Positions 9,044 through 20,527 of a DNA stretch of 64,000 nucleotides are shown here, piece by piece. Origin of the DNA: an uncultured Planctomycetales bacterium (GTDB lineage: Bacteria > Planctomycetota > Phycisphaerae > UBA1845 > Fen-1342); contig CAZJYX010000001.1 in the NCBI GenBank assembly GCA_964550375.1, positions 2,049 to 66,048 of the forward strand, given 5' to 3'. Within the stretch, counting starts at the first letter, position 1; each line of letters opens with the position of its first letter. Made by a program: the position numbers and the translations under genes. The notes beneath the pieces are model-generated. The model was not told the DNA's origin. It saw only the letters and a list, made by a program, of their open reading frames with translations, and searched no databases.

Positions 9044-9895
9044 ATGATATGGTCGCTATGTTCTCTCGTCTTATTGCTGCAGCCGGCGCCCCATTTGACC
9101 ATGGTGCCGACCGAGGCGCAACAGCCCGCGGAAGACGCGCCCGTATACGATGAAGGGCCGCTGGCAGTGGCCGTCGTGGCGATCTTTGACGCCCGTTACT
9201 GGTTCGAGCACACCCGGACGGGAACGCGTGAATCCGAGATGCGCATGCAGATACGGATATCGGGCGAGGACATCAAGAAGATCGTGCGGGCCGGAGAAGT
9301 GATCTTCACCGAGGTGGTTGACGATACGGGCAAGAGCCTGGTCGACCCGCAGAGTTACACGGAAGAACAGAAGACCCAGACGCGGCCGGTGAACGCCGCG
9401 CCGGAACGTCTCCGCGAGCAGGGCCTGATGACCGGGACGCGGTTCGGCTCACCGGCACGGGGCGCCAAGACGGTCAAGCTGGTCGGCTCCGTGCGTGTCG
9501 TCAAGGCGGCGGACCGCGAGGAGGTCACCATTGATAACCCGCTGCAATACGTCGGCCAGACCATTGAGAACCCGCGGCTGAAAGAGCTTGGCATCGAGGT
9601 CAAGGTCGTGCCGGTCGCCGAGTTGCCGGGCAGCCCGCCGCCCGCGGATCAGATGATTGCGCTGCAGTACCTGCGGGGCGACCAGCAGATCGCCGGCATC
9701 AAGCTGCTCGACGGTTGGATGAAGCCCGTGCGGTACCGCGAGCGGCCGATGAACACGATGAGTGGTGATCCGGTAGCCGCCTACCTGGCCCAGGGCAGCG
9801 CGCTGGACGAGAACACGCAGCTAGTGCTGGAGGTGTTCCCGCATGTCGAGGAAACCGAAGTGAAAATCAATCTCGACGCCGTCCGGCTGCCCTAA
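9044..9895 (+). CDS. hypothetical protein
   Basis: 283-aa ORF with a hydrophobic N-terminus; no recognisable domain. Precedes the flippase gene. Confidence 0.45.
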   Translation: MIWSLCSLVLLLQPAPHLTMVPTEAQQPAEDAPVYDEGPLAVAVVAIFDARYWFEHTRTGTRESEMRMQIRISGEDIKKIVRAGEVIFTEVVDDTGKSLVDPQSYTEEQKTQTRPVNAAPERLREQGLMTGTRFGSPARGAKTVKLVGSVRVVKAADREEVTIDNPLQYVGQTIENPRLKELGIEVKVVPVAELPGSPPPADQMIALQYLRGDQQIAGIKLLDGWMKPVRYRERPMNTMSGDPVAAYLAQGSALDENTQLVLEVFPHVEETEVKINLDAVRLP

Positions 9896-11440: not shown

Positions 11441-11522
11441 GCCGGGCCCGGACAAGGCGGATGCGGTATTCGCGCAGCCGCAGTAGCGGCCATCCGAGGT
11501 GGGGATCATCGATTGGGGTAAG

Positions 11523-11564
11523 CGAGGCCGACGGGACTCGAACCCGCAACCTCCGGCGTGACAG
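11523..11564. repeat. attL: 42-bp direct repeat, duplicate of tRNA-Asp positions 32-73 (anticodon loop to discriminator)
   Basis: cgaggccgacgggactcgaacccgcaacctccggcgtgacag is identical at 11523-11564 and 20152-20193. Flanks diverge immediately outside. Confidence 0.85.
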
Positions 11565-11678
11565 CGGCTCCAAGCCTACAGCCAAAAGCCCGGGAAACTC
11601 TTGACTACCGGTAGTTTACATCATTTACGCAAGCATTGCAAGTCTTATCAGATACCCGCATTTTTAGGCAAATACACG

Positions 11679-11770
11679 CGGTAGGCGGAGCGCATCCGGT
11701 AGTAAACGGTAGTCGCACGGTAGTCGAAACGGTAGTCGCGGGTGGCACGGGGTGGCGCGGGGTGGCACGC
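11679..11770. repeat. iteron-like tandem repeats next to attL: (A)CGGTAGTCG about 4-5 copies, then GGGTGGCRCG 3 copies
   Basis: Read directly: cggtagg, ccggtagtaaa, acggtagtcg, cacggtagtcg, aaacggtagtcg, then cgggtggcacgg, ggtggcgcgg, ggtggcacgc. Palindrome ctaccggtag at 11605-11614. Confidence 0.6.
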
Positions 11771-11993
11771 GCCCGCTCGGTTGTGGACTTGGGTACTTGG
11801 GTCCTGCTGACTTGTGGTGAAGGGCGCCAAGGGTCGGGCCCGCGCACAGAAGCCCGCCAGACCGCGAGAATCGGCCGCTGCTGAGCGCGCCGGGTTGGGG
11901 TGGTACTCTGGCACCCGGAAAAGCGCCAGGGCGAAAAGCGGCCCGCCAGCGTGTAGGCACCGACGGGCCATGTGGAGGGCAACGACAACGGAC

Positions 11994-13472
11994 CTAATTC
12001 GCGAACCTCGCGGTTCGGTCTTGATGGTCAATCGCGAGCTCGACAGCGGAAAGCCCGTTTTTGGTGACCTGATGCAGACGGGTGATTTCGCTGATTTCCT
12101 TCTCGGCCAGGGCAACCATCCGGCCAGTGTTGCGAGCCGTTTGGTCTTCGGCAGGTCGGGGGGTCGCCGCGCTGGCTGCAATCCGGTTGAACGCGCCCGC
12201 GATGGTTTCGAAGGCTTGAACGCGGACTTGAACCGGGGCCACCGTCAACGCGGATTCAAGCGCGGCCTTCGCTTGCTCGCCCGCACGGGCGAAAGTCTCG
12301 GGGTCGATCAAGTCGCGCGACAGAAGGTCGCTCAGTTCCGCGAGGGTGTCGCGGAAAACCTCAGCGGGCGTCCGCACGGCTTGGGCAATCGACGCGGCCC
12401 GCCGCTGCGCGCTGGCGAGTTCGTTCATCGTGTCAAGCTCTTCGGACAAGGCTTCGGCAAGCTCAAGGGTCGCGTCGCTCGCATCGTGTTGCAGCAGCGT
12501 CCACGCCGCGAGTTGCCCAGTAGACATGCCGAAGGTCTCGACTTGCTCGCGTAGGCTGTTGATAACCGAGTCGATGCTTTGTTGCCACTGATCTTCAGCC
12601 TGCGCGGCCTTCTCCGTCGCTTCGGTTTCGTCGTGGATTGCCGTGATAGCCTGATGAATTGCCAACGCGCGGGCAATGTCGGCTTCGGTCGCGCCTTGGG
12701 CCGCAAGCGCGCGATGGATGATCGCCTGTTCATTCAGCGTCAGCGCCTCAAGCTCGCGCTCCAGGCCCGCAATGAAGTCTTCAATTGGTCGCCGCCGCGC
12801 TTCTTCGGCCACAAGCTCGGCCGCCGCAAGCTTCGCGTCCCGCAAGCCGCGCGCGTAGCGTTCGGTCGCTTCGGCGGTTGCCCGCGCCGCGCGCGCGCGT
12901 TCGTGGAGCGGCCCTTGGGCTTCCATCTGCAACTTCGCAATTTCGACCAAACGGGCTTGGTATTCCGTTTCCGCCTCAAGCTTCGCGCGCTCAAGGTCGT
13001 TCGCCGCGCTGACAAGCTTCAACTGCTGCCCCAGCCCGCGAAGTAACTTGCCCTGCGCTTCAACCTGTTTGTTTAAGTTCGCGGGCAAAGGGTCGAAGAT
13101 TCGGTAGATCGCTTCAACCGCGCGATACCAGTCTCGGACGATGGGTATGATCTTCAGAATCTCGCCGGCCAGGTCCTCAGCCGCGAGCTCGCCAGCGCGC
13201 AACTTGGCGGCCAATTCGCCGGCCTGCGTAGCCATATCGCCCAGCAGCCGCCCCGCCATCGACAAGCCGGCCAGCGCGCCGCCGGCCATGCCGATTTGAA
13301 CAAACTTGCCGAACGCGGAGTCGCTGCCAAGCTGCTTGTTCATGCTGTTGACGCTGGTAGCCACGCCGCGCATGGCATCGCGGACACGCCGCGAAGTCTG
13401 TTCAACGCCCTTCATGCGGCGTTCGAAGTCATCTGTTCGCGCGATGATATCGAGAATCGCTTGTGCAGACAT
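11994..13472 (-). CDS. coiled-coil protein of integrative element (tape-measure-like or scaffold-like)
   Basis: 492 aa, A/E/L/R/Q-rich, largely helical/coiled-coil. Immediately preceded by a 152-aa gene (16-nt gap). Confidence 0.55.
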   Translation of the reverse strand: MSAQAILDIIARTDDFERRMKGVEQTSRRVRDAMRGVATSVNSMNKQLGSDSAFGKFVQIGMAGGALAGLSMAGRLLGDMATQAGELAAKLRAGELAAEDLAGEILKIIPIVRDWYRAVEAIYRIFDPLPANLNKQVEAQGKLLRGLGQQLKLVSAANDLERAKLEAETEYQARLVEIAKLQMEAQGPLHERARAARATAEATERYARGLRDAKLAAAELVAEEARRRPIEDFIAGLERELEALTLNEQAIIHRALAAQGATEADIARALAIHQAITAIHDETEATEKAAQAEDQWQQSIDSVINSLREQVETFGMSTGQLAAWTLLQHDASDATLELAEALSEELDTMNELASAQRRAASIAQAVRTPAEVFRDTLAELSDLLSRDLIDPETFARAGEQAKAALESALTVAPVQVRVQAFETIAGAFNRIAASAATPRPAEDQTARNTGRMVALAEKEISEITRLHQVTKNGLSAVELAIDHQDRTARFAN

Positions 13473-13487
13473 ATAGACTTCCTTCGG

Positions 13488-13946
13488 CTACTTGCCTTTG
13501 GTCGCGGTCATGCTGACAGCCGGCGCCGCCGCCGCGTCCGAAGCCGCATCAGCTGGCCGCAACTCGCCATCCTTCGCCAGAAGGTCGCCGATTTCTTCGG
13601 CCGAGAGTTCCGGCTGCGTCTGTCGCGTGGCCAGCCACAACAGATAGGCCGCGCCCTCAAGCTGTCGCGTCGCCGCCTGAACAACCGGATCGGTCGGGCT
13701 CATCGTCACCGCGCGGGCCAACGTCCTGTCAACGATGCCCTCGATTGCCTTCGCGGGTAGATGCTTCTCCAACTCGCCAAGGTGCTGCCAAACGGCCTTC
13801 GAATAGCGCTCCGCAGCCCAGCGCGCGAAGTCGTGCCAGCCCTCGAAGCTCAGCGGGGCCACGCTGAAAGTCTTGCCCGCGAGCGTAACCACTTGCTCCG
13901 GGGTCGGAAGGTTGCCCGCCGGGGTCGGGGTCGCGTCATTCGCCAT
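13488..13946 (-). CDS. hypothetical phage-related protein (position of a tail-assembly-chaperone-like gene)
   Basis: 152-aa ORF translationally adjacent to the coiled-coil gene; no recognisable domain. Confidence 0.45.
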   Translation of the reverse strand: MANDATPTPAGNLPTPEQVVTLAGKTFSVAPLSFEGWHDFARWAAERYSKAVWQHLGELEKHLPAKAIEGIVDRTLARAVTMSPTDPVVQAATRQLEGAAYLLWLATRQTQPELSAEEIGDLLAKDGELRPADAASDAAAAPAVSMTATKGK

Positions 13947-14145: not shown

Positions 14146-14850
14146 TCACTTCTGCCCAGCCTGCCGCACCATGATCGCCGCCGCCTCATCGCGAACACGC
14201 TGGCGTTCAACGATTCCGTCCCGAATCCCCGCGTGAAGCTCGCGGTCTTCTCGCCGGAGCCGGGATTCCTCAGCGTCGTACTCTTCGTCGCGCTCAAGGT
14301 CCGCGACCAGTCGCGCCGGGTCCTGCCCGACCGGAGCCACTGCGATGCCAACGTAGCCGTCCACAAGCGGAATCGGGTTGCCCATGTAGCCCGGCGATTC
14401 GATGTCGGTCAGCGGGTGTTCGGGGAAGGCCACGCGCATCGCCTCGACAAGCTCGCCATCGTCGGCGCACCGCAACAAAGCCGGGGTGCCGCGCTCGCGG
14501 GCCCACTCATCGAATGCTGCCAGCAACGCCGAAACGCTCACGGCCAGCCCGTTGTGTTCCGCGAACCGCTCGCGTCCGAAGTCTGCAAGCTTGGCCGCAC
14601 GCTCCGGGGCCGCGTCGGCGCGGCGCTGCTCGCGCTCGCGGTCTTGCTCCGCATCGATACGCCGTGCCTCAGCGTGCGCCGACAGCGCGCGAAGTTCCAA
14701 GCCAAGCCGTGATTTCCGGATCAAGGCAAGCTGTTCCTCAGCCAACTGCAAGCGGCCCTCAAGCGCCGCCAGTCGCGCGGCGTAGGGGTCCGGGTCGGGC
14801 TTGCCGCCCTTGTCGGAAGGGGTCGTTGTTTTTGGGGGTCTGCCTCGCAT
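14146..14850 (-). CDS. hypothetical coiled-coil protein (scaffold-like?)
   Basis: 234 aa; N-terminal charged helical region LAALEGRLQLAEEQLALIRK...; acidic C-terminus. Confidence 0.45.
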   Translation of the reverse strand: MRGRPPKTTTPSDKGGKPDPDPYAARLAALEGRLQLAEEQLALIRKSRLGLELRALSAHAEARRIDAEQDREREQRRADAAPERAAKLADFGRERFAEHNGLAVSVSALLAAFDEWARERGTPALLRCADDGELVEAMRVAFPEHPLTDIESPGYMGNPIPLVDGYVGIAVAPVGQDPARLVADLERDEEYDAEESRLRREDRELHAGIRDGIVERQRVRDEAAAIMVRQAGQK

Positions 14851-14902: not shown

Positions 14903-15520
14903 CTACTTCTGCCCAGCCCGCTGCGCCGCCGCAGCCGCCGCCCACCGCCGCCGGAGCGCGTCCTTCACAATCGCGGTTGTCCGCGCGGCGCGCGACAGCG
15001 AAAGCGGGATGAAGTCGCCCAGACCGGGCACTACCGGATTCGTACACAACGCCACGTGTTCGATGGGCTGCATGTACACGTTGCCCTTGCCGTCCACGAG
15101 CCGGGGCGGACTCTGTAGCGACACGTCCGAGCGGGCCACAGCGTTCACCGCGTCTTCACCGATGATCGTGCACGCCATCCAAAGCGTGTCGCCTTCGATC
15201 CAAAGGCTATCGACCCAGCCCATGTTGCGGGTCGCGCTTCCGTGGTTCGCGTGCTGGTCGGGAATCGGCACGCGGACGCCGTTCGCCTTCATCCGCCCGA
15301 ATTGCGTTATCCAATTGTCCAGGTGCGCCCGCGTGATCTGAAAGTCCTCGCCGGCGCTCATTTTCGCGTAGCGCCCGACGCGCACGACTTCCTTTTTGAA
15401 CCGCCGTTGCGGGATGCTTTGGCCGTTGTCAGCGGGCGCGCTTTCCAGCGGGCCGATGGGGGTTGCCGTCGGGGTTGCCGTCATCATTGCCGGGGCCGTC
15501 ATAGTCGTCACGTTGCACAT
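14903..15520 (-). CDS. Mu gpI-like (prohead protease/scaffold family) N-domain protein
   Basis: Motif run VVRVGRYAKMSAGEDFQITRAHLDNWITQFGRMKANGVRVPIPDQH. It resembles the conserved GxF..IT...L..IV.NF....V.ID.EH block of Mu-like prophage protein I, from memory of family motifs. Confidence 0.4.
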   Translation of the reverse strand: MCNVTTMTAPAMMTATPTATPIGPLESAPADNGQSIPQRRFKKEVVRVGRYAKMSAGEDFQITRAHLDNWITQFGRMKANGVRVPIPDQHANHGSATRNMGWVDSLWIEGDTLWMACTIIGEDAVNAVARSDVSLQSPPRLVDGKGNVYMQPIEHVALCTNPVVPGLGDFIPLSLSRAARTTAIVKDALRRRWAAAAAAQRAGQK

Positions 15521-15804
15521 CCTTTCTTGCGGCCGGCCGCGCTTGCTGCGCGCCGCCGCTGGGGGGTCTTGTCCTCTCGGGCCGCAATCGCCGCCTCGAG
15601 TCTGCCGATGCCCTCGCCGATGCTGGGGAAGCCCTCGAATGCCCGAGCCGCCTCAGCGCTCGACACGTCAAGGCCGACCGTCCGCGCGACCATCAAGCCG
15701 ACCAGCCGCGCCGCATCGCTCCGCACGTCCGCGACGCGCCGCCGCTGTCGCTCCGCCGACCGAAGCCGGCCCTCCAACCGCGCTACCGTCGCCCGCAGGG
15801 TCAT
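15508..15804 (-). CDS. hypothetical protein
   Basis: 98-aa R-rich ORF in operonic position (overlaps both neighbours by a few nt). Confidence 0.3.
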   Translation of the reverse strand: MTLRATVARLEGRLRSAERQRRRVADVRSDAARLVGLMVARTVGLDVSSAEAARAFEGFPSIGEGIGRLEAAIAAREDKTPQRRRAASAAGRKKGCAT

Positions 15805-16193
15805 ATTCCAACCGCTCCGCCAGCCGTGCCGCGCTCCTGCTCCGCAGCCATCGCCGCCTCAACGCTCTCCAAACGCTCAAGCAAATCCGCCGCGATGGGC
15901 TGCCCAATCGCGTAGCTCAACAACAGCTTTGCCGCCTGAGCATCGCCGCTCCGCGCCGCCTTCACGAGCCGCCCGATGATCGACCGTATGTCTTGCTCGC
16001 TGACCGCCGCAATCAGCGCCGACCGAAGCCGGGCCACTTGAGCGCCCAGCGGGTTGCCGGGCCCGCCGCTGTTGCCGCGCGCGAACCGCCCGCGCGAGTC
16101 GCGCCCGGAGCCGCCGTCACTGCCGTTTGGTGACGGCGCTGACGGATGCACCTTCAAGGCTTTCTTGCCCGACTTGTTCTGCTTGCTCGCCAC
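15801..16193 (-). CDS. DUF5681-like protein, possible small terminase (TerS)-like
   Basis: N-terminal GRFARGNSGGPGNP motif (cf. the G(K/R)F.KGQSGNP.GRPKG signature). Helical C-terminus AARSGDAQAAKLLLSYAIG. Confidence 0.45.
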   Translation of the reverse strand: MASKQNKSGKKALKVHPSAPSPNGSDGGSGRDSRGRFARGNSGGPGNPLGAQVARLRSALIAAVSEQDIRSIIGRLVKAARSGDAQAAKLLLSYAIGQPIAADLLERLESVEAAMAAEQERGTAGGAVGI

Positions 16194-16496: not shown

Positions 16497-16889
16497 TCAA
16501 CCCATCGGGTCGATTCGAAGCTCAACAACGCACTGTGCCGGCGTGTAGCCGTCGCACGCCGCCGTGACAACTTCCGAGTACACGCCCGGCTTCAAGCCGC
16601 TGCCGTCCAACTCGATTTCGAACGGGACGCCGTGCTCGCAACTCTCGGGGATCGTCAGCCACTCCGCGCCGCCAAACTTGGAGAGCGCGATCGATTCTTC
16701 GGGGTCGGGGGCGCCGGCCACAACCAAGCTCTTGGTAAGGGCCTGCGGCTGCCCACCGGGCCGGCTACCAAGCACGCCGCGCACGTTCGCGGGCGCGTGC
16801 GGGCCGCACGGCACGCGGACCGTTGTGTCACCTGTCACCGCCACCGGATCGAAACTCAGAGTCGGCATTGGTCCTTCCTTTCTCAGCAT
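16497..16889 (-). CDS. hypothetical protein
   Basis: 130-aa ORF; globular-looking composition with Cys residues. Confidence 0.4.
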   Translation of the reverse strand: MLRKEGPMPTLSFDPVAVTGDTTVRVPCGPHAPANVRGVLGSRPGGQPQALTKSLVVAGAPDPEESIALSKFGGAEWLTIPESCEHGVPFEIELDGSGLKPGVYSEVVTAACDGYTPAQCVVELRIDPMG

Positions 16890-16989: not shown

Positions 16990-18159
16990 TCACGTTACGC
17001 ACTCCATCGCACCCGCAACCTCCGGCGTCGCGGGCTCCCGCTCTTGGCTCTTGGGTCGATGGATTCGCTGGTCGGGCTCGGGTTCCAGGGGCAAGGGCTC
17101 CGGCTCGCCGAATTGCAGGCCGTGCTCCGCCAGCAACGCGACGAACAAGGGCGTTGTTCGGTTGCACCAGCCAACATGGCCTTTTCGGAGAAGGTGCTGT
17201 TCTTCGGGCCGGAGCCGCTGCTGCCCTTCAACGAGCATCGCAGCCCGGTCGGCTTCTGGGAGCGCATCAAACGTCCGCGCGGCCCAAGCCCGCCTCGAAT
17301 TTCTCCAATCCTCAAGCTCCTGCCGATACTCACGCTCACGAGCCGCCGCCGCTCGCCGCTCGTCGGCAGTCCGCCGTTCGTGCTCCAGGTCCGCGACCTC
17401 TTGCCGATACATTGCGAGCCGTTCCGGGTCCTGAAACTCGCGGGCTACCATGCCCGGACCCCAGCGGGACCGCTCCGCGACGGCCAACACGTGCCGCACC
17501 AGCGCCGAGCCGTGCTGCGAAATCTGCCGGACTGCCGCCGCGCCCAGCCGGTCGTTGCTGGGGAAGGGGTGTTGCTCCAGGAGCCGCCGAGCTTCGGCCA
17601 CGTTGGCTGCCTCGCCGGGCGCCTCGCCGTGGGCCGCTCCCGCTCCGATCTTCTCCGCCTCTCTCAATCCGAAATCTCCCCCCCCACCTTCACCCGGCCG
17701 CGCGCCCGGGGGCTGGGGGGCTGGCGATTGCGTGGGGGGTTTGGGGGGGGAAGTATTCTTCTCTTCTCTTCTCTTCTCTGGTAACGATTTTGTAACGCCG
17801 CCAGCGTTACACCTGCGTTTCCGATGCTTGGCTACCCGGTTAGCCGTAAGTACCCGCTGCTTCGCACCTTGCGACATGTGCCGTTCGAATCGCGGGATGC
17901 TGATAGCGTTACTTGTAACGCGGAGCCAGCCGACCTTCTGAAGGTTTTCTGCGAAGTTTTCGACGCCGGCCAACTCGTCGATGAAGTCGGGCGTCAGGTT
18001 CGGCGCGCGGCCGTCCCGCGAGTGTTTGTCGAACCAAGACCAGACCGCGTGCAAGGAGCCGACGACGTGTTGGCGGGCAATCCCGCAAGCACTGGCGAGG
18101 GTCAGTACTGCGGGATCGTCGGGCAGGTCGTGGCGCATTTTGAGCCAGTCACCAGCCAT
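16990..18159 (-). CDS. replication-associated protein (phage replisome-organiser-like N-domain) with low-complexity linker
   Basis: Start MAGDWLKMRHDLPDDPAVLTLASACGIARQHVVGSLHAVWSWFDKHS resembles phage replisome organiser N-terminal domains. Pro/Gly-rich linker is encoded by homopolymer tracts; R/E-rich C-terminal half. Confidence 0.5.
   Translation of the reverse strand: MAGDWLKMRHDLPDDPAVLTLASACGIARQHVVGSLHAVWSWFDKHSRDGRAPNLTPDFIDELAGVENFAENLQKVGWLRVTSNAISIPRFERHMSQGAKQRVLTANRVAKHRKRRCNAGGVTKSLPEKRREEKNTSPPKPPTQSPAPQPPGARPGEGGGGDFGLREAEKIGAGAAHGEAPGEAANVAEARRLLEQHPFPSNDRLGAAAVRQISQHGSALVRHVLAVAERSRWGPGMVAREFQDPERLAMYRQEVADLEHERRTADERRAAAAREREYRQELEDWRNSRRAWAARTFDALPEADRAAMLVEGQQRLRPEEQHLLRKGHVGWCNRTTPLFVALLAEHGLQFGEPEPLPLEPEPDQRIHRPKSQEREPATPEVAGAMECVT
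17678..17779. repeat. simple-sequence region: C8 (17678-17685), G-runs incl. G8 (17743-17750), (TCTTC)x4.6 (17757-17779) inside the Rep-like gene
   Basis: Read directly from sequence; encodes ...EKRREEKNTSPPKPP...GGGGD... on the minus strand. Confidence 0.8.
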
Positions 18160-18172
18160 CGTGGGAATCCCT

Positions 18173-18439
18173 TCAGCACCCCGCAGCCTGCAAAGCCTTC
18201 CCCGCCTTCTCGGCCTTGTGGTCGCGCGTCTCCGGCAGGGCACCGGGCGCGTTCAAGGCCGCGATGAAGCGGTTTACGGCCTGCTCGGTCGTGAACCGCT
18301 GACCGCCGACCATGATGCTTTCCAGCCGCACGCCGCGCACGCCAACCGCCGTCCAGCGCCAGCGCGTGGCGAGACTCGGGCGTCCGGGAACCCGGACTTT
18401 GTTCAACGGGACCAAAACTTCACTCGAAAGGTCGATCAT
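18173..18439 (-). CDS. AlpA/excisionase-like HTH DNA-binding protein
   Basis: 88 aa. PSLATRWRW...GVRLESIMVGGQRFTTEQAVNRFIA resembles the AlpA/Xis pattern (STIYRWIK...G.FP.P.KIGGRS.RW.E.E...W). Sits between int and rep. Confidence 0.4.
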   Translation of the reverse strand: MIDLSSEVLVPLNKVRVPGRPSLATRWRWTAVGVRGVRLESIMVGGQRFTTEQAVNRFIAALNAPGALPETRDHKAEKAGKALQAAGC

Positions 18440-18773: not shown

Positions 18774-20036
18774 TCAACCGATCTTCCCCGCCGCGTCGCG
18801 GGCGCGGGTCGCGTCCATCTCGGCGTAGACCTGCGTAACGGCTAGGCTCCGGTGGCCGAGCACGGCCTTGGCGACTTCCAGGCCGTATTCCTTCCGCATC
18901 GCCGTTGCGGCTGAGTGCCTCAGCTGGTGGGGGTGCCAGTCCGGAATCTCATCTTCCCCGCGCTCGCGCCGGAGCCGGTTCGCCGTGGCGATGCCGCGCT
19001 GGACGGCCGCGTAGTAGGAGTTCGTCGTCCACCGCTCCCCGGGGAGCTTCCGGGGCCGGGCCTTACGCCGGTTGCGCTGGGACGGCTGGACACGTGTCTT
19101 CCGCCGGCTGCGTAGCTCAACGAAGCGCCGCTCGCGGGCGCGGGCTGGCGAAAACAGGTATTCGGTCAGGTCCATCCGCAGCCAGGGCCGCAAGACCTCT
19201 TGGGCTTTCGGGCCAAGCCGAATCTGACGCTCGTGGCCATGATGCTCGGTTTTGTGAACGCTCGGGGTGTAGCACCAAACCTTCCCGGTCGCGTCGATGT
19301 CGCCGGTCCGCATGATGGTCACTTCGCCGGAGCGCATGCCGGTCAGCCGCTGAAGCTCAACCATCGCAGCCACTTCCGGCGCGACGTGCGGTAGCGTCGC
19401 GTCCACAAAGTGATCCGGCACGGGCCGCACTGGCTCGCCTTCGCGGGCGTCAGACCGGCCGCGCTCCAGGTGCTTCACGGCCTGCAGCGCGTGGCACACA
19501 CTGGCCGGGCATAGCTCGTTTTCGACGGCCCAGGCGAACACCCGGCGGATACGTTGGACGGTCTTGTTGACGTGCGTGCGGGTGCGCCCGGCCGCTACGA
19601 ACCGCTCCCGGACGGTCTTGAGCTTCAGGGGTCCGAAGTCGGCCGCCGGCGTGAGCCCGTACAACTCCCGCAGCGGTCGCAGCGCGGCCCGCAGGTGGCC
19701 AAGCTCTTTTTCGCTCGGCTGCCCGTCCCGGTCGCGGTAGTAGCTCTCCGCGAATCGCAGATAGGCCAGTAGCAGTTCGTTCACGGATATGCTCGGCTGG
19801 TCCTCCCCCGGGCTCGGCAGCGTGCGGCCGTGGGCTACCCACTCGGCAATGAGCCGGCTGTACTTCTCCCGGCTCTCCGGGCTGCCGTGGCGTCCTAGGT
19901 AGTGGTCCCGGCCGTCCAGCGTTGTGACGGCCTGCCCGCTGGCTTTGTGGAGCCGGTAGGCGGGGACACGGCCTGCGGCTGCTGCGGGCTTGCGAGGGGC
20001 GTTTCTTGAGCTTCTGCGGGGCGTAGTGCGGGGCAT
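18774..20036 (-). CDS. int: tyrosine-type site-specific integrase
   Basis: C-terminal catalytic domain with HQLRHSAAT...LGHRSLAVTQVYAE (R-H-R-Y signature). Lies adjacent to the tRNA/attR. Confidence 0.9.
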   Translation of the reverse strand: MPRTTPRRSSRNAPRKPAAAAGRVPAYRLHKASGQAVTTLDGRDHYLGRHGSPESREKYSRLIAEWVAHGRTLPSPGEDQPSISVNELLLAYLRFAESYYRDRDGQPSEKELGHLRAALRPLRELYGLTPAADFGPLKLKTVRERFVAAGRTRTHVNKTVQRIRRVFAWAVENELCPASVCHALQAVKHLERGRSDAREGEPVRPVPDHFVDATLPHVAPEVAAMVELQRLTGMRSGEVTIMRTGDIDATGKVWCYTPSVHKTEHHGHERQIRLGPKAQEVLRPWLRMDLTEYLFSPARARERRFVELRSRRKTRVQPSQRNRRKARPRKLPGERWTTNSYYAAVQRGIATANRLRRERGEDEIPDWHPHQLRHSAATAMRKEYGLEVAKAVLGHRSLAVTQVYAEMDATRARDAAGKIG

Positions 20037-20151
20037 GGGCGACCTCCGGATGGGCTACCCGGTAGTACTACCGGGTTTTCCAGCTTCCCGGGCCGCACTG
20101 CCCTACTCAGGCAGGTACGCTAAACCCTGCGTTCGGCACGACTTGGGGCAA

Positions 20152-20226
20152 CGAGGCCGACGGGACTCGAACCCGCAACCTCCGGCGTGACAGGCCGGCG
20201 CTCTAGACCAATTGAGCTACGGCCCC
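20152..20226 (-). tRNA. tRNA-Asp (anticodon GTC)
   Basis: Manually folded 75-nt cloverleaf: acceptor GGGGCCG/CGGCCTC, D arm GCTC-GAGC, anticodon stem CCGGC/GCCGG, loop CTGTCAC, T arm GCGGG-TTCGAGT-CCCGT, discriminator G. CCA is not encoded. Confidence 0.85.
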
Positions 20227-20527
20227 AATCGTTCGCTCACGCTGGTCAGCGTGAGTCCTGAGTCTGGGTATTTTACAGGTCCCGCAGGTTATGTCAAACG
20301 CCGCTATTTCGAGCTGCAAGCGGACGGTGGCGGCCGAACGTGGGCCCGGTTCATTATCTGTCACTGGGTTGCGCCCCGCCCTCGGCTTGCCCGGCCCGAA
20401 AGCGGGTCGGCCGCAGCGCCGATACAACAGATAACGTTGGCTGGCGGGCCGGTGCAGGCTAACGTTGCGCCCCGGCTCTGGAACGCCGGGGCACCGGCGA
20501 CAAGGGGCGAAAGGAGTCCGGAACGTC

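What the first reader, a model, noticed from the sequence alone, without database searches (positions are those of the whole stretch)
11994..13946. 152-aa gene followed by 492-aa Ala/Glu/Leu-rich coiled-coil gene: tape-measure/chaperone-like pair or capsid-size-redirecting scaffold
The gene order and composition (small acidic protein immediately upstream of a long, almost fully helical protein) mimic the tail assembly chaperone plus tape measure pair. But no tail tube, sheath or baseplate genes are present. An external/internal scaffold that remodels a helper capsid (Sid/CpmB-like role) is an alternative. Either way its function inside an 8.7-kb element is unexplained.
Basis: inference. Interest (0 to 1): 0.5.

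Follow-up and report, generated by a model that had tools for sequence, protein, structure and literature searches.

The report
Phage satellite carrying its own tape measure
An 8.6-kb integrated phage parasite (satellite) in a probable planctomycete genome carries its own tail tape-measure protein and matching chaperone but no other tail genes, probably so that it can build tails from a helper phage's parts around its own core protein, a trick shown so far only in Vibrio cholerae satellites.

Summary
Both ORFs are real and lie on the minus strand: 152 aa at 13488-13946 and 492 aa at 11994-13472. They are the last two genes of an 8.63-kb element inserted at tRNA-Asp and bounded by a 42-nt exact direct repeat.

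The 492-aa protein has no direct family hit. An exhaustive search finds 417 relatives. The larger ones are strong tape measure proteins (TMPs). The closest full-length ones (43-27% identity) sit in the TMP slot of uncultured phage tail modules.

The 152-aa protein belongs to the family encoded immediately upstream of those TMPs. In one phage a paralogue of it carries a canonical -1 frameshift signal (C CCA AAA), the hallmark of gpG/gpGT tail assembly chaperones. The window's copy has no such signal and is a "G-only" form.

A second, diverged element in a Planctomycetales MAG (10.76 kb, a different direct repeat) ends with the same pair.

The most likely function is chimeric tail assembly, as shown experimentally for Vibrio PLE satellites (Nature 2026). 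This step is inferred, not shown. I rate the finding a new variant of a recently recognised kind, in a new phylum and an apparently undescribed satellite lineage.

The parts
11510..11564 (.). Distal att repeat: a copy of the 3' part of tRNA-Asp with a 42-nt exact core. It marks the end of the element, about 430 nt after the TMP gene.
   Evidence: Direct repeat D1, spacing 8629 nt. Exact core checked.
11994..13472 (-). 492-aa tape measure protein homologue, the last gene of the element.
   Evidence: ORF and translation. 417 relatives; P0002 is 43% identical at E 6e-91 over the full length. The relatives are TMPs by PHROG and Pfam. hhalign against TMP-positive proteins gives probability 99.9, E 4e-37. 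Homologues occupy the TMP slot in phages. The predicted structure is all-helical and extended.
13488..13946 (-). 152-aa tail-assembly-chaperone-like protein, 'G-only' (no frameshift extension), encoded immediately upstream of the TMP gene.
   Evidence: phmmer gives 5.8e-18 to the 131-aa gene upstream of the TMP in phage L010, 3.5e-13 to the L009 satellite homologue and 4.6e-11 to the frameshifting 154-aa paralogue. Family alignment A5. hhalign probability 99.2 to the gene upstream of the TMP in L016. No slippery site and no -1 extension.
14146..14850 (-). 234-aa acidic protein of unknown function. It is conserved in the related satellite L009 just upstream of the chaperone gene and is not found in the phages.
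   Evidence: 33% identity to L009 8516-9328. phmmer 1e-21 to the L009 homologue and no phage hit. No family hits.
14903..15520 (-). 205-aa protein homologous to the N-terminal part of a phage head protein (probable maturation protease) encoded upstream of the capsid gene. Its C-terminal tail is shared with the 234-aa protein.
   Evidence: Residues 111-176 are 77% identical to the 443-aa protein of L010 (sequence). Weak hit to phrog_976 head maturation protease, E 0.002. Shared 3' DNA repeat D4 and C-termini.
15508..15804 (-). 98-aa basic protein, function unknown.
   Evidence: ORF. Called as a gene in independent metagenome assemblies. No significant family hit.
15801..16193 (-). 130-aa protein with a weak DUF5681 match. 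It could be a small-terminase-like packaging protein; that is my speculation, not a test result.
   Evidence: PF18932, E 9e-4, below the gathering cutoff. phrog_38011, E 0.0011.
16497..16889 (-). About 123-130-aa protein of unknown function, conserved in the related satellite.
   Evidence: 44% identity to L009 5551-5904. phmmer 5e-30.
16990..18243 (-). Replication initiation protein. Other assemblies call it as 389 aa starting at 18159.
   Evidence: phrog_2509, E 4.7e-46. Gene calls.
18173..18439 (-). 88-aa DUF1580 protein. It is paired with the integrase in many related elements.
   Evidence: Precomputed Pfam PF07618 on the gene call. 57% identity to L009. Present next to related integrases in 12 further loci.
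18774..20036 (-). Tyrosine integrase.
   Evidence: PF00589, E 7e-17. phrog_1, E 1e-27.
20139..20227 (-). tRNA-Asp(GTC) gene (20151-20227) and the proximal att repeat (20139-20193).
   Evidence: ARAGORN. Direct repeat D1.

Best explanation
The two genes are a cognate tail assembly chaperone (152 aa, gpG-like, without the gpT extension) and tape measure protein (492 aa). They are carried as the terminal module of an 8.63-kb integrative phage satellite in a probable planctomycete host.

Proposed mechanism, by analogy with Vibrio PLE satellites. When a helper siphovirus of the L010/L011 type (Mu-like head genes) replicates, the satellite expresses its chaperone, which coats and solubilises the satellite's own TMP. 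Helper-encoded tail-tip proteins, the helper's frameshifted GT chaperone, tube protein and terminator then assemble around this TMP. The result is a chimeric tail that joins capsids holding satellite DNA. At about 0.15 nm per residue (textbook rule) a 492-aa TMP gives a tail of about 74 nm. That is the same as a relative phage's 491-aa TMP, so tail resizing is not the purpose here.

Shown: the gene identities by homology and synteny, the element boundaries, the lack of other structural genes, and conservation of the module in a second diverged satellite.

Inferred: expression on helper infection, incorporation of the protein into virions, and the benefit to the satellite.
For: (1) The element is a bounded integrative element with an integrase and a replication initiator, and it has no capsid, portal, tube or baseplate homologue.

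(2) The 492-aa protein has 417 relatives in an exhaustive search. Of the top 70, 19 match phrog_1293 and many match other 'tail length tape measure' families; 13 match Pfam PhageMin_Tail and 4 match TMP_3. Profile-profile comparison with TMP-positive proteins gives probability 99.9, E 4e-37.

(3) Its close full-length relatives sit in the TMP slot. In L015 the order is TerL, portal, Peptidase_S78, capsid, connectors, Tail_completion_gp17, then three more genes (the last a Phage_TAC_1-like gene), then the homologue, then distal tail genes. In L010 and L011 the homologue follows capsid, Mu_Gp36 and tail genes, and is followed by a conserved gene of about 270 aa and larger tail genes.

(4) The 152-aa family is encoded immediately upstream of the TMP in the window, L009, L010, L011, L013 and L016. 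Its 154-aa paralogue in L010 has the slippery heptamer C CCA AAA where the -1 frame opens into the next ORF. L011 encodes the fused 227-aa form as one ORF. This is the gpG/gpGT signature.

(5) A second satellite, L009, is 10.76 kb with a 44-nt exact direct repeat. Its integrase is 46%, DUF1580 57% and p130a homologue 44% identical to the window's. It ends with the same order of p234 homologue, chaperone and TMP.

(6) Chaperone and TMP change partners together. Each satellite's pair is closer to phage L010's pair (32-39% and 41-46%) than to the other satellite's pair (30% and 31%).

(7) Experimental precedent. PLEs encode a TMP and a TAC that are selectively built into PLE virions, and deleting tmp lowers transduction by 96-99.9% (PMC12987554). 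EPIP satellites of Mycolicibacterium also encode a TMP (PMC12822802).
Against: - There is no direct significant match of the 492-aa protein to any curated TMP family. The best is phrog_58 at E 0.084. The assignment is transitive and positional.
- The 152-aa protein matches no Pfam TAC family and shows no similarity to the Phage_TAC_1-like gene of L015. Its single-sequence structure model is unusable (pLDDT 45).
- No helper phage is present in the window, and no phage TMP closer than 43% identity was found anywhere.
- No baseplate-hub gene accompanies the pair, unlike in PLE.
- There is no evidence of excision, expression or packaging. The 8647-bp element-only contig merely breaks inside the repeats.
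- Twenty-six loci with related integrases, at least 12 of them also carrying DUF1580, have no TMP or chaperone homologue. The module is therefore not a universal feature of this integrase lineage.
Confidence: 0.6

Rival explanations
1. Defective prophage remnant. The element is what is left of an L010-like prophage after deletions removed the genes between the head protease and the chaperone, and the genes after the TMP. On this view the TAC-TMP pair is leftover cargo with no current role.
For: The satellite's gene order is protease fragment, chaperone, TMP. That is a collinear subset of the phage order protease, capsid, other head and tail genes, chaperone, TMP. The 205-aa protein looks like a truncated version of the 443-aa phage protein. 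No mobilisation evidence exists.
Against: Both att repeats are intact and all ORFs are open. The family-conserved residues of the TMP (P110, P369, E371, A397) are retained. A second element, diverged to 30-57% protein identity and bounded by a different direct repeat, keeps the same reduced architecture with the pair as its terminal genes. Random decay would not preserve that. Descent from a prophage by deletion is compatible with being a functional satellite today.
Confidence: 0.15
2. Interference weapon. The satellite TMP and/or the G-only chaperone act mainly to sabotage the helper. For example, a decoy TMP could titrate helper tip complexes, or a chaperone could sequester the helper TMP. 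The aim would be to lower helper yield rather than to build the satellite's own tails. A related possibility is that they let the satellite escape a TMP-targeted inhibitor or exclusion system.
For: In PLE11 the satellite TMP allows escape from the satellite's own anti-TMP protein Rta, which blocks helper tail assembly. The satellite TMPs here are strongly diverged from the nearest phage TMPs (41-46%), as expected if they must differ functionally from the helper's. Conserved satellite-specific genes of unknown function lie next to the pair (the 234-aa protein).
Against: No Rta-like or known tail-blocking gene was identified. Full-length conservation of TMP motifs, including both termini, suggests a working TMP and not a decoy. 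This rival is not exclusive of the main explanation.
Confidence: 0.15
3. Capsid-size-redirecting scaffold. On this view the long helical 492-aa protein forms an internal or external cage, like Sid, CpmB or TcaP, that forces the helper capsid protein into small shells sized for 8.6 kb.
For: The element is far smaller than a phage genome, so some packaging or size adaptation is plausible. The protein is long and about 90% helical.
Against: The protein is a full-length homologue (residues 4-459) of a 491-aa protein that lies in the tail part of a phage structural cluster, far from the capsid and scaffold genes. It shares a 175-column region with bona fide TMPs. Its upstream partner is of the chaperone family with a gpG/gpGT paralogue. 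If a size-redirecting factor exists, the 205-aa and 234-aa pair with the shared C-terminal tail are better candidates.
Confidence: 0.04

Closest known systems
PLE (phage-inducible chromosomal island-like element) TMP-TAC-BhuB module of Vibrio cholerae, parasite of phage ICP1 (Mathur, Boyd et al., Nature 2026, PMC12987554)
   Same: Both are small integrative satellites without tube, sheath or fibre genes that carry an adjacent chaperone gene and TMP gene, diverged from the helper-type counterparts. The experimentally shown role is selective incorporation of the satellite TMP into chimeric tails, which is needed for efficient transduction.
   Different: The host phylum differs (probable Planctomycetota versus Vibrio). 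The helper type is probably a siphovirus, not a contractile-tailed phage. No baseplate-hub gene and no Rta-like gene were found. Identity to the nearest phage TMP is 41-46%, against about 20% in PLE. The 492-aa length equals the 491 aa of a relative phage's TMP, so no tail shortening is predicted. Sequence relatedness to PLE proteins was not tested, and nothing here is experimental.
EPIP satellites of Mycolicibacterium aichiense (bioRxiv Dec 2025, PMC12822802) and putative tmp genes in cf-PICIs (Extended Data Fig. 10 of PMC12987554)
   Same: Satellites that encode a TMP while depending on a helper for the other tail parts.
   Different: EPIPs and cf-PICIs also encode head proteins: scaffold, adaptor, stopper, and a capsid protein in cf-PICIs. 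The window's element has no capsid, portal or connector homologue. EPIP tails are longer and variable in length. No chaperone is reported in the passages I read.
Lambda-type gpG/gpGT chaperone plus gpH tape measure (conserved -1 frameshift in tail assembly genes; textbook knowledge, Xu et al. 2004)
   Same: The gene order is chaperone then TMP. The chaperone is small and acidic. The TMP is long and helical. A phage paralogue of the 152-aa protein has an X XXY YYZ slippery site feeding a -1 ORF.
   Different: The window's chaperone has no frameshift site and no T-like extension. It would have to rely on a helper GT form to recruit tube protein. There is no detectable sequence similarity to Pfam TAC families.
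P4 Sid, SaPI CpmA/CpmB and PLE TcaP capsid-size scaffolds
   Same: All are satellite-encoded helical proteins that remodel helper assembly.
   Different: Those proteins act on capsids and are not homologous to tail proteins. The 492-aa protein is a TMP homologue.

Membership tests
Tail tape measure protein (TMP) | Direct significant match to a curated TMP family (Pfam PF10145, PF20155, PF09718 or PF06791; PHROG 'tail length tape measure protein') | tested here: not met
   The best hit is phrog_58 at E 0.084. No Pfam or NCBIfam TMP hit.
Tail tape measure protein (TMP) | Homology to proteins that are themselves TMPs (transitive or profile level) | tested here: met
   phmmer gives E 1e-11 to 1e-16 against proteins that match TMP PHROGs at 1e-25 to 1e-51. 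hhalign gives probability 99.9, E 4e-37 over 175 columns. The close relative P0004 hits the TMP family phrog_24 directly at 1.3e-5.
Tail tape measure protein (TMP) | Gene lies between the tail assembly chaperone gene(s) and the distal-tail/tip genes of a tailed phage | tested here: met
   This holds for homologues P0002, P0004, P0006 and P0009 in phage contigs L010, L011, L013 and L015. In the window only the upstream half holds, because the element ends after the gene.
Tail tape measure protein (TMP) | Long, almost entirely alpha-helical, extended protein without a globular fold | tested here: met
   The AlphaFold2 model has about 90% helix in 15 helices with pTM 0.30. No fold match in the PDB. 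Heptad periodicity is weak.
Tail tape measure protein (TMP) | Sits in the tail lumen and sets tail length | not testable with these tools
   Needs virion proteomics, TEM or length mutants.
Tail assembly chaperone (gpG/gpGT type) | Small gene immediately upstream of the TMP gene, co-inherited with it | tested here: met
   Seen in six loci: the window, L009, L010, L011, L013 and L016. Identity patterns are congruent with those of the TMP.
Tail assembly chaperone (gpG/gpGT type) | Programmed -1 frameshift (slippery heptamer plus an overlapping -1 ORF) that gives a longer GT product | tested here: not met
   The 13488-13946 gene has no X XXY YYZ site in its 3' half and no useful -1 ORF. The feature is met in the phage paralogue: the L010 154-aa gene has C CCA AAA at 9185 and the -1 frame is open from 9176 into the 90-aa ORF. 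L011 has the fused 227-aa form. The window's gene is therefore filed as a G-only paralogue and not as a canonical G/GT gene.
Tail assembly chaperone (gpG/gpGT type) | Match to a Pfam Phage_TAC family or a TAC fold | tested here: inconclusive
   No Pfam TAC hit for any of the 8 family members. No PDB sequence hit. hhalign to the Phage_TAC_1-like gene of L015 is negative. The single-sequence model has pLDDT 45 and is unusable.
PLE-type chimeric-tail module | Satellite encodes an adjacent TAC and TMP while lacking tube, sheath and fibre genes | tested here: met
   and the evidence above.
PLE-type chimeric-tail module | Satellite-encoded baseplate hub (BhuB) accompanies the TMP and TAC | tested here: not met
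   No further element protein has a homologue among the L010 or L011 tail proteins or in PHROGs or Pfam. The element ends about 430 nt after the TMP gene.
PLE-type chimeric-tail module | Sequence homology to PLE TMP/TAC, and selective incorporation into satellite virions | not tested
Incorporation needs experiments.
Phage satellite (general: P4-like, PICI, cf-PICI, PLE classes) | Small integrative element with an integrase, its own replication initiator and att repeats, lacking a full virion gene set but carrying genes that touch helper morphogenesis | tested here: met
   A second family member, L009, has TerL, RepO-like and DnaC-like genes and also no capsid.
Phage satellite (general: P4-like, PICI, cf-PICI, PLE classes) | Hallmark genes of a named class (P4: Sid/Psu/Delta/primase; cf-PICI: capsid, portal, protease and connectors; PICI: AlpA, Pri-Rep and TerS/Ppi) | tested here: not met
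   No such hits in Pfam, PHROGs or NCBIfam. There is only a weak DUF5681 hit and a protease-fragment homologue. I do not file the element under any named class.
Sid/CpmB/TcaP capsid-size scaffolds | Sequence or structural similarity to those proteins, and action on procapsids | not tested
   No reference sequences were compared directly. This reading is disfavoured because the protein is a full-length TMP-slot homologue.

The most novel reading that the evidence does not exclude
Replacing the tape measure may be a convergent and general satellite strategy. On this reading, this planctomycete lineage shows its minimal form: only a G-type chaperone and a TMP, repeatedly captured from or exchanged with helper phages, since each satellite's pair is closer to a phage's pair than to the other satellite's. 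The pair would serve as vehicle and weapon. It would give the satellite tails that are immune to a TMP-directed block or exclusion, while competing with the helper's own TMP for tip complexes and tube protein. That would make tail-core substitution, not capsid resizing, the central parasitic act of a new satellite class in a phylum where no satellite has been described to my knowledge.
Probability: 0.2. Interest if true: 0.75.

Novelty: new variant of a known kind. Interest (0 to 1): 0.55.

Why it matters
Until 2025-2026, satellites were thought to take helper tails unchanged. PLE was then shown to swap in its own tape measure.

An independent satellite lineage in a distant phylum carries only a chaperone and a TMP, and keeps that pair across deep divergence. 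This suggests tail-core substitution is a recurrent solution and not a Vibrio oddity. It also points to the chaperone plus TMP as the minimal module needed.

The finding gives a handle on planctomycete phages, whose tail proteins are otherwise unrecognisable: none of 10 proteins from the phage L010 structural cluster hit PHROGs at E <= 0.05, apart from one E 0.032 match to a family of unknown function. The satellite's 77%-identical protease fragment and its 43%-identical TMP identify the helper phage type.

The G-only chaperone raises a testable question. Can a satellite TMP coated by its own G protein be handed to a helper's GT protein?

Tried and rejected
- Word-indexed homologue searches returned essentially only self-hits for the 492-aa protein, for its family alignment (which added one 54-bit, 2%-coverage match) and for the 152-aa protein. 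Only the exhaustive search worked.
- Direct Pfam, PHROG and NCBIfam scans of all element proteins gave noise for the two genes (hemerythrin, LarA, RoaM and similar).
- PDB sequence searches gave ribosomal-protein noise.
- A Foldseek search of the 492-aa model against the PDB gave nothing at E <= 1e-3, as expected for an extended helical protein.
The single-sequence model is too poor to search with.
- The frameshift check on 13488-13946 was negative.
- Locus searches with the TMP alignment failed for lack of conserved stretches, or found nothing in viral and metagenome contigs.
- tblastn against 50,697 GenBank phage records gave no match.
- The promoter and terminator scan was uninformative.
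- The 8647-bp element-only contig was considered as evidence of an excised circle. I rejected this because its ends fall inside the repeat, which is an assembly break.
- A weak tblastn similarity of the 130-aa protein (16497-16889) to a phage connector-region protein was not reproduced by phmmer, so I dropped it.
- A search of 26 loci with related integrases for more TAC-TMP satellites found none.
Full report
**Observation**

Both ORFs exist at the stated coordinates on the minus strand. The 152-aa gene runs 13946->13488 and the 492-aa gene runs 13472->11994. Each has a Shine-Dalgarno-like sequence, and they are 15 nt apart.

The 492-aa protein is 19% Ala, 11% Leu and 10% Glu. AlphaFold2 with a 14-sequence alignment gives about 90% helix in 15 helices and no globular core (pLDDT 67.8, pTM 0.30). 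A simple Fourier test finds only weak heptad periodicity, so 'coiled coil' is not verified. Residues 52-78 form a Gly/Ala-rich hydrophobic segment.

**The element**

A tRNA-Asp(GTC) gene lies at 20151-20227. Its 3' part is repeated at 11510-11564 (42 nt exact, spacing 8629 nt). All genes between the repeats are on the minus strand:

- a tyrosine integrase (PF00589, 7e-17)
- an 88-aa DUF1580 protein
- a replication initiator (phrog_2509, 5e-46)
- several small proteins: one with a weak DUF5681 match, a 205-aa protein and a 234-aa protein
- the 152-aa and 492-aa pair, which are the last genes before the distal repeat

Nothing in the element matches a capsid, portal, tube, sheath or baseplate. 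This holds in the family libraries and against the proteins of two related phages. The identical element occurs in many metagenome assemblies. An 8647-bp contig that holds only the element ends inside the repeats, so it is an assembly break and not proof of a circle.

**What the 492-aa protein is**

Direct family scans give only noise. The best is phrog_58, a TMP family, at E 0.084. Word-indexed searches find only the protein itself.

The exhaustive phmmer search of 1.84 billion representatives finds 417 relatives at E <= 1e-3 and 40 at E <= 1e-10. Two groups matter.

- *Full-length relatives of 410-530 aa.* P0002 is 43% identical at 6e-91 and aligns residues 4-459. P0003 to P0010 also belong here. 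Together with four further, more distant full-length relatives (P0014, P0018, P0020, P0023; alignment A3), they share:
  - an N-terminal motif
  - the Gly/Ala hydrophobic segment
  - an 'SIPI' motif with invariant P110
  - an 'RTPxExY...LxELL..GLID..T..RA' block (P369, E371, A397)
  - a C-terminal 'ARFA' motif
- *Larger proteins of 600-1300 aa that match residues about 230-460.* These are bona fide TMPs. Of the top 70 hits, 19 match phrog_1293 and many match other tape-measure PHROGs. Thirteen match Pfam PhageMin_Tail and 4 match TMP_3. Individual proteins score 1e-25 to 1e-51. hhalign of the family against 12 such TMPs gives probability 99.9, E 4e-37 over 175 columns. The 12 were chosen from the hit list, so the independent information is their TMP annotation.

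**Genomic context of the relatives**

- P0009 (413 aa) lies in a classical siphovirus cluster. The order is TerL, portal, Peptidase_S78, Phage_capsid, connectors, Tail_completion_gp17, a 341-aa gene, a 148-aa gene, a Phage_TAC_1-like gene, P0009, then six further tail-sized genes.
- P0002 and P0004 lie in phage contigs with a lambda-E-type capsid gene and a Mu gp36-like gene. A run of tail genes and two small paralogous genes precede them. A conserved gene of about 270 aa follows, and in L011 so do genes of 564 and 976 aa.
- P0006, P0007 and P0010 show the same local pattern of a small gene, the homologue and a gene of about 280 aa.

The family therefore occupies the tape-measure slot. GenBank phages hold no relative, and none of 10 proteins from the L010 structural cluster (the 622-aa to 190-aa genes) has a meaningful PHROG hit. 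This is a poorly sampled phage group.

**What the 152-aa protein is**

It has no family hit. It is homologous to the gene immediately upstream of the TMP homologue in L010 (131 aa, phmmer 5.8e-18), L009 (3.5e-13), L011 (119 aa, 2.4e-7), L013 and L016 (hhalign probability 99.2).

Phage L010 has a second paralogue of 154 aa, 37% identical to its 131-aa gene. That paralogue carries the canonical slippery heptamer C CCA AAA at 9185, exactly where the -1 frame opens (from 9176) into the following 90-aa ORF. Phage L011 encodes the corresponding fusion as a single 227-aa ORF. This is the conserved gpG/gpGT arrangement of tail assembly chaperones.

The window's gene has no slippery site and no -1 extension. 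I read it as a G-only chaperone paralogue. It shows no similarity to the Phage_TAC_1-like gene of L015. Its single-sequence model is too poor to use. Membership of a curated TAC family is therefore not shown.

**A second satellite**

A Planctomycetales MAG contig (L009) holds a 10.76-kb element bounded by a 44-nt exact repeat. Its gene order is integrase (46% identical), DUF1580 (57%), RepO-like and DnaC-like genes, a homologue of the 130-aa protein (44%), a large terminase, a homologue of the 234-aa protein (33%), the chaperone (30%) and the TMP (32%). The TMP is again last before the repeat, and again there is no capsid or tube gene.

The backbone genes are more alike between the two satellites than the pair is. 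Each satellite's chaperone and TMP are closer to phage L010's (32-39% and 41-46%) than to each other's (30% and 31%). The pair therefore travels as a unit and seems to track phages.

Twenty-six further metagenome loci have related integrases. At least 12 of them also carry DUF1580. None has the pair.

**Mechanism**

The literature held here supplies the precedent. Vibrio PLE satellites encode a TMP, a TAC and a baseplate hub. The PLE TMP, not the ICP1 TMP, is found in PLE virions. Deleting tmp lowers transduction by 96-99.9%. Putative tmp genes were also noted in PLE-like elements and cf-PICIs (PMC12987554). EPIP satellites of Mycolicibacterium also encode a TMP (PMC12822802).

By analogy, I propose the following. 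The 152-aa protein chaperones the satellite's own 492-aa TMP. Helper tip, GT chaperone, tube and terminator proteins assemble around it. The resulting chimeric tails serve the satellite's particles. Because 492 aa matches the 491 aa of the nearest phage TMP, tail resizing is unlikely to be the purpose. L009's TMP is about 55 aa shorter.

All of this is inference. No helper is in the window, and nothing shows expression, excision or packaging.

**Rivals**

- *Defective prophage remnant.* This fits the collinearity with the phage order and the truncated protease homologue. The conserved reduced architecture in L009 and the intact motifs argue against it.
- *Interference or escape role.* This is compatible with the main model and is suggested by PLE11's Rta logic. 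No candidate inhibitor was recognised.
- *Sid/CpmB-like capsid scaffold.* This is not supported for these genes. If such a factor exists, the 205-aa protein is one candidate. Its residues 111-176 are 77% identical to a phage head protein, and it lacks that protein's C-terminal half. The satellite-specific 234-aa protein is the other. The two share a C-terminal '...QAGQK' tail.

**Verdict**

The chaperone/tape-measure reading is right, with a G-only chaperone and no frameshift. The scaffold reading is not supported. The puzzle of why a satellite carries only these tail genes now has an experimentally grounded analogue.

I rate the finding a new variant of a recently recognised kind: an apparently undescribed satellite lineage in a probable planctomycete host, carrying a minimal chaperone-plus-TMP module. 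Confidence is about 0.9 in the gene identities. The confidence of 0.6 given for the best explanation refers to the chimeric-tail mechanism.

Noticed in passing
window 14903-15520 (-) and 14146-14850 (-); DNA repeat 14148-14185 / 14905-14942: Residues 111-176 of the 205-aa protein are 77% identical to the N-terminal part of a 443-aa protein encoded just upstream of the capsid gene in phage L010 (probable head protease/scaffold). It lacks that protein's C-terminal half of about 215 aa. Instead it ends in '...AAQRAGQK', a tail it shares with the neighbouring satellite-specific 234-aa protein ('...MVRQAGQK'). This may be a capsid-targeting or size-redirection pair.
   Followed up: partly
L010 8772-9529: The phage's 154-aa chaperone gene has a slippery heptamer C CCA AAA at 9185, and the -1 frame is open from 9176 into the next 90-aa ORF (gpG/gpGT-type frameshift). 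Phage L011 (7678-8361) encodes the fused 227-aa form as one ORF and keeps a separate short paralogue of 119 aa.
   Followed up: yes
window 17007-17044: A third, partial copy (82%) of the att core / tRNA-Asp segment lies inside the element, at the 3' end of the replication gene. It could be chance, or a site bound by the integrase or the packaging machinery (family D3).
   Followed up: no
L019-L042 (metagenome loci): The integrase plus DUF1580 pair is a shared front module of many other planctomycete-type integrative elements. Several are contigs of 9-10 kb that start about 230 nt before the integrase gene. They carry other cargo (for example ORFs of 520-600 aa) and no chaperone or TMP homologue.
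   Followed up: partly
window 13472-13490; L009 9967-9986; L010 9967-10001: The chaperone and TMP genes are in the same reading frame, separated by one stop codon and a few codons, in the window, L009 and L010. They are not in the same frame in L011 or L013. Three of five is not significant, but stop-codon readthrough to a fusion protein is not excluded (coordinates).
   Followed up: partly
L009 9485-9574: The 5' end of the L009 chaperone homologue holds four to five tandem 18-nt repeats that encode a (E/K)TND(T/M)T peptide repeat absent from the other family members.
   Followed up: no
L009 880-923 and 11644-11687: The 44-nt exact att repeat looks like the T-arm and acceptor 3' half of a tRNA. 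Neither ARAGORN nor Rfam finds a tRNA or tmRNA next to it.
   Followed up: partly
L010 13705-14562; L011 17126-17983: Both phage contigs carry a 285-aa sigma-70-family gene directly after the tail genes. The two copies are 28% identical, which suggests a phage-encoded sigma factor in this phage group.
   Followed up: no
window 11565-11993: About 430 nt lie between the TMP stop codon and the distal att repeat with no convincing gene. There is one Pro/Arg-rich TTG ORF, and one assembly calls a 107-aa gene there. This could be the integrase arm-site region.
   Followed up: no
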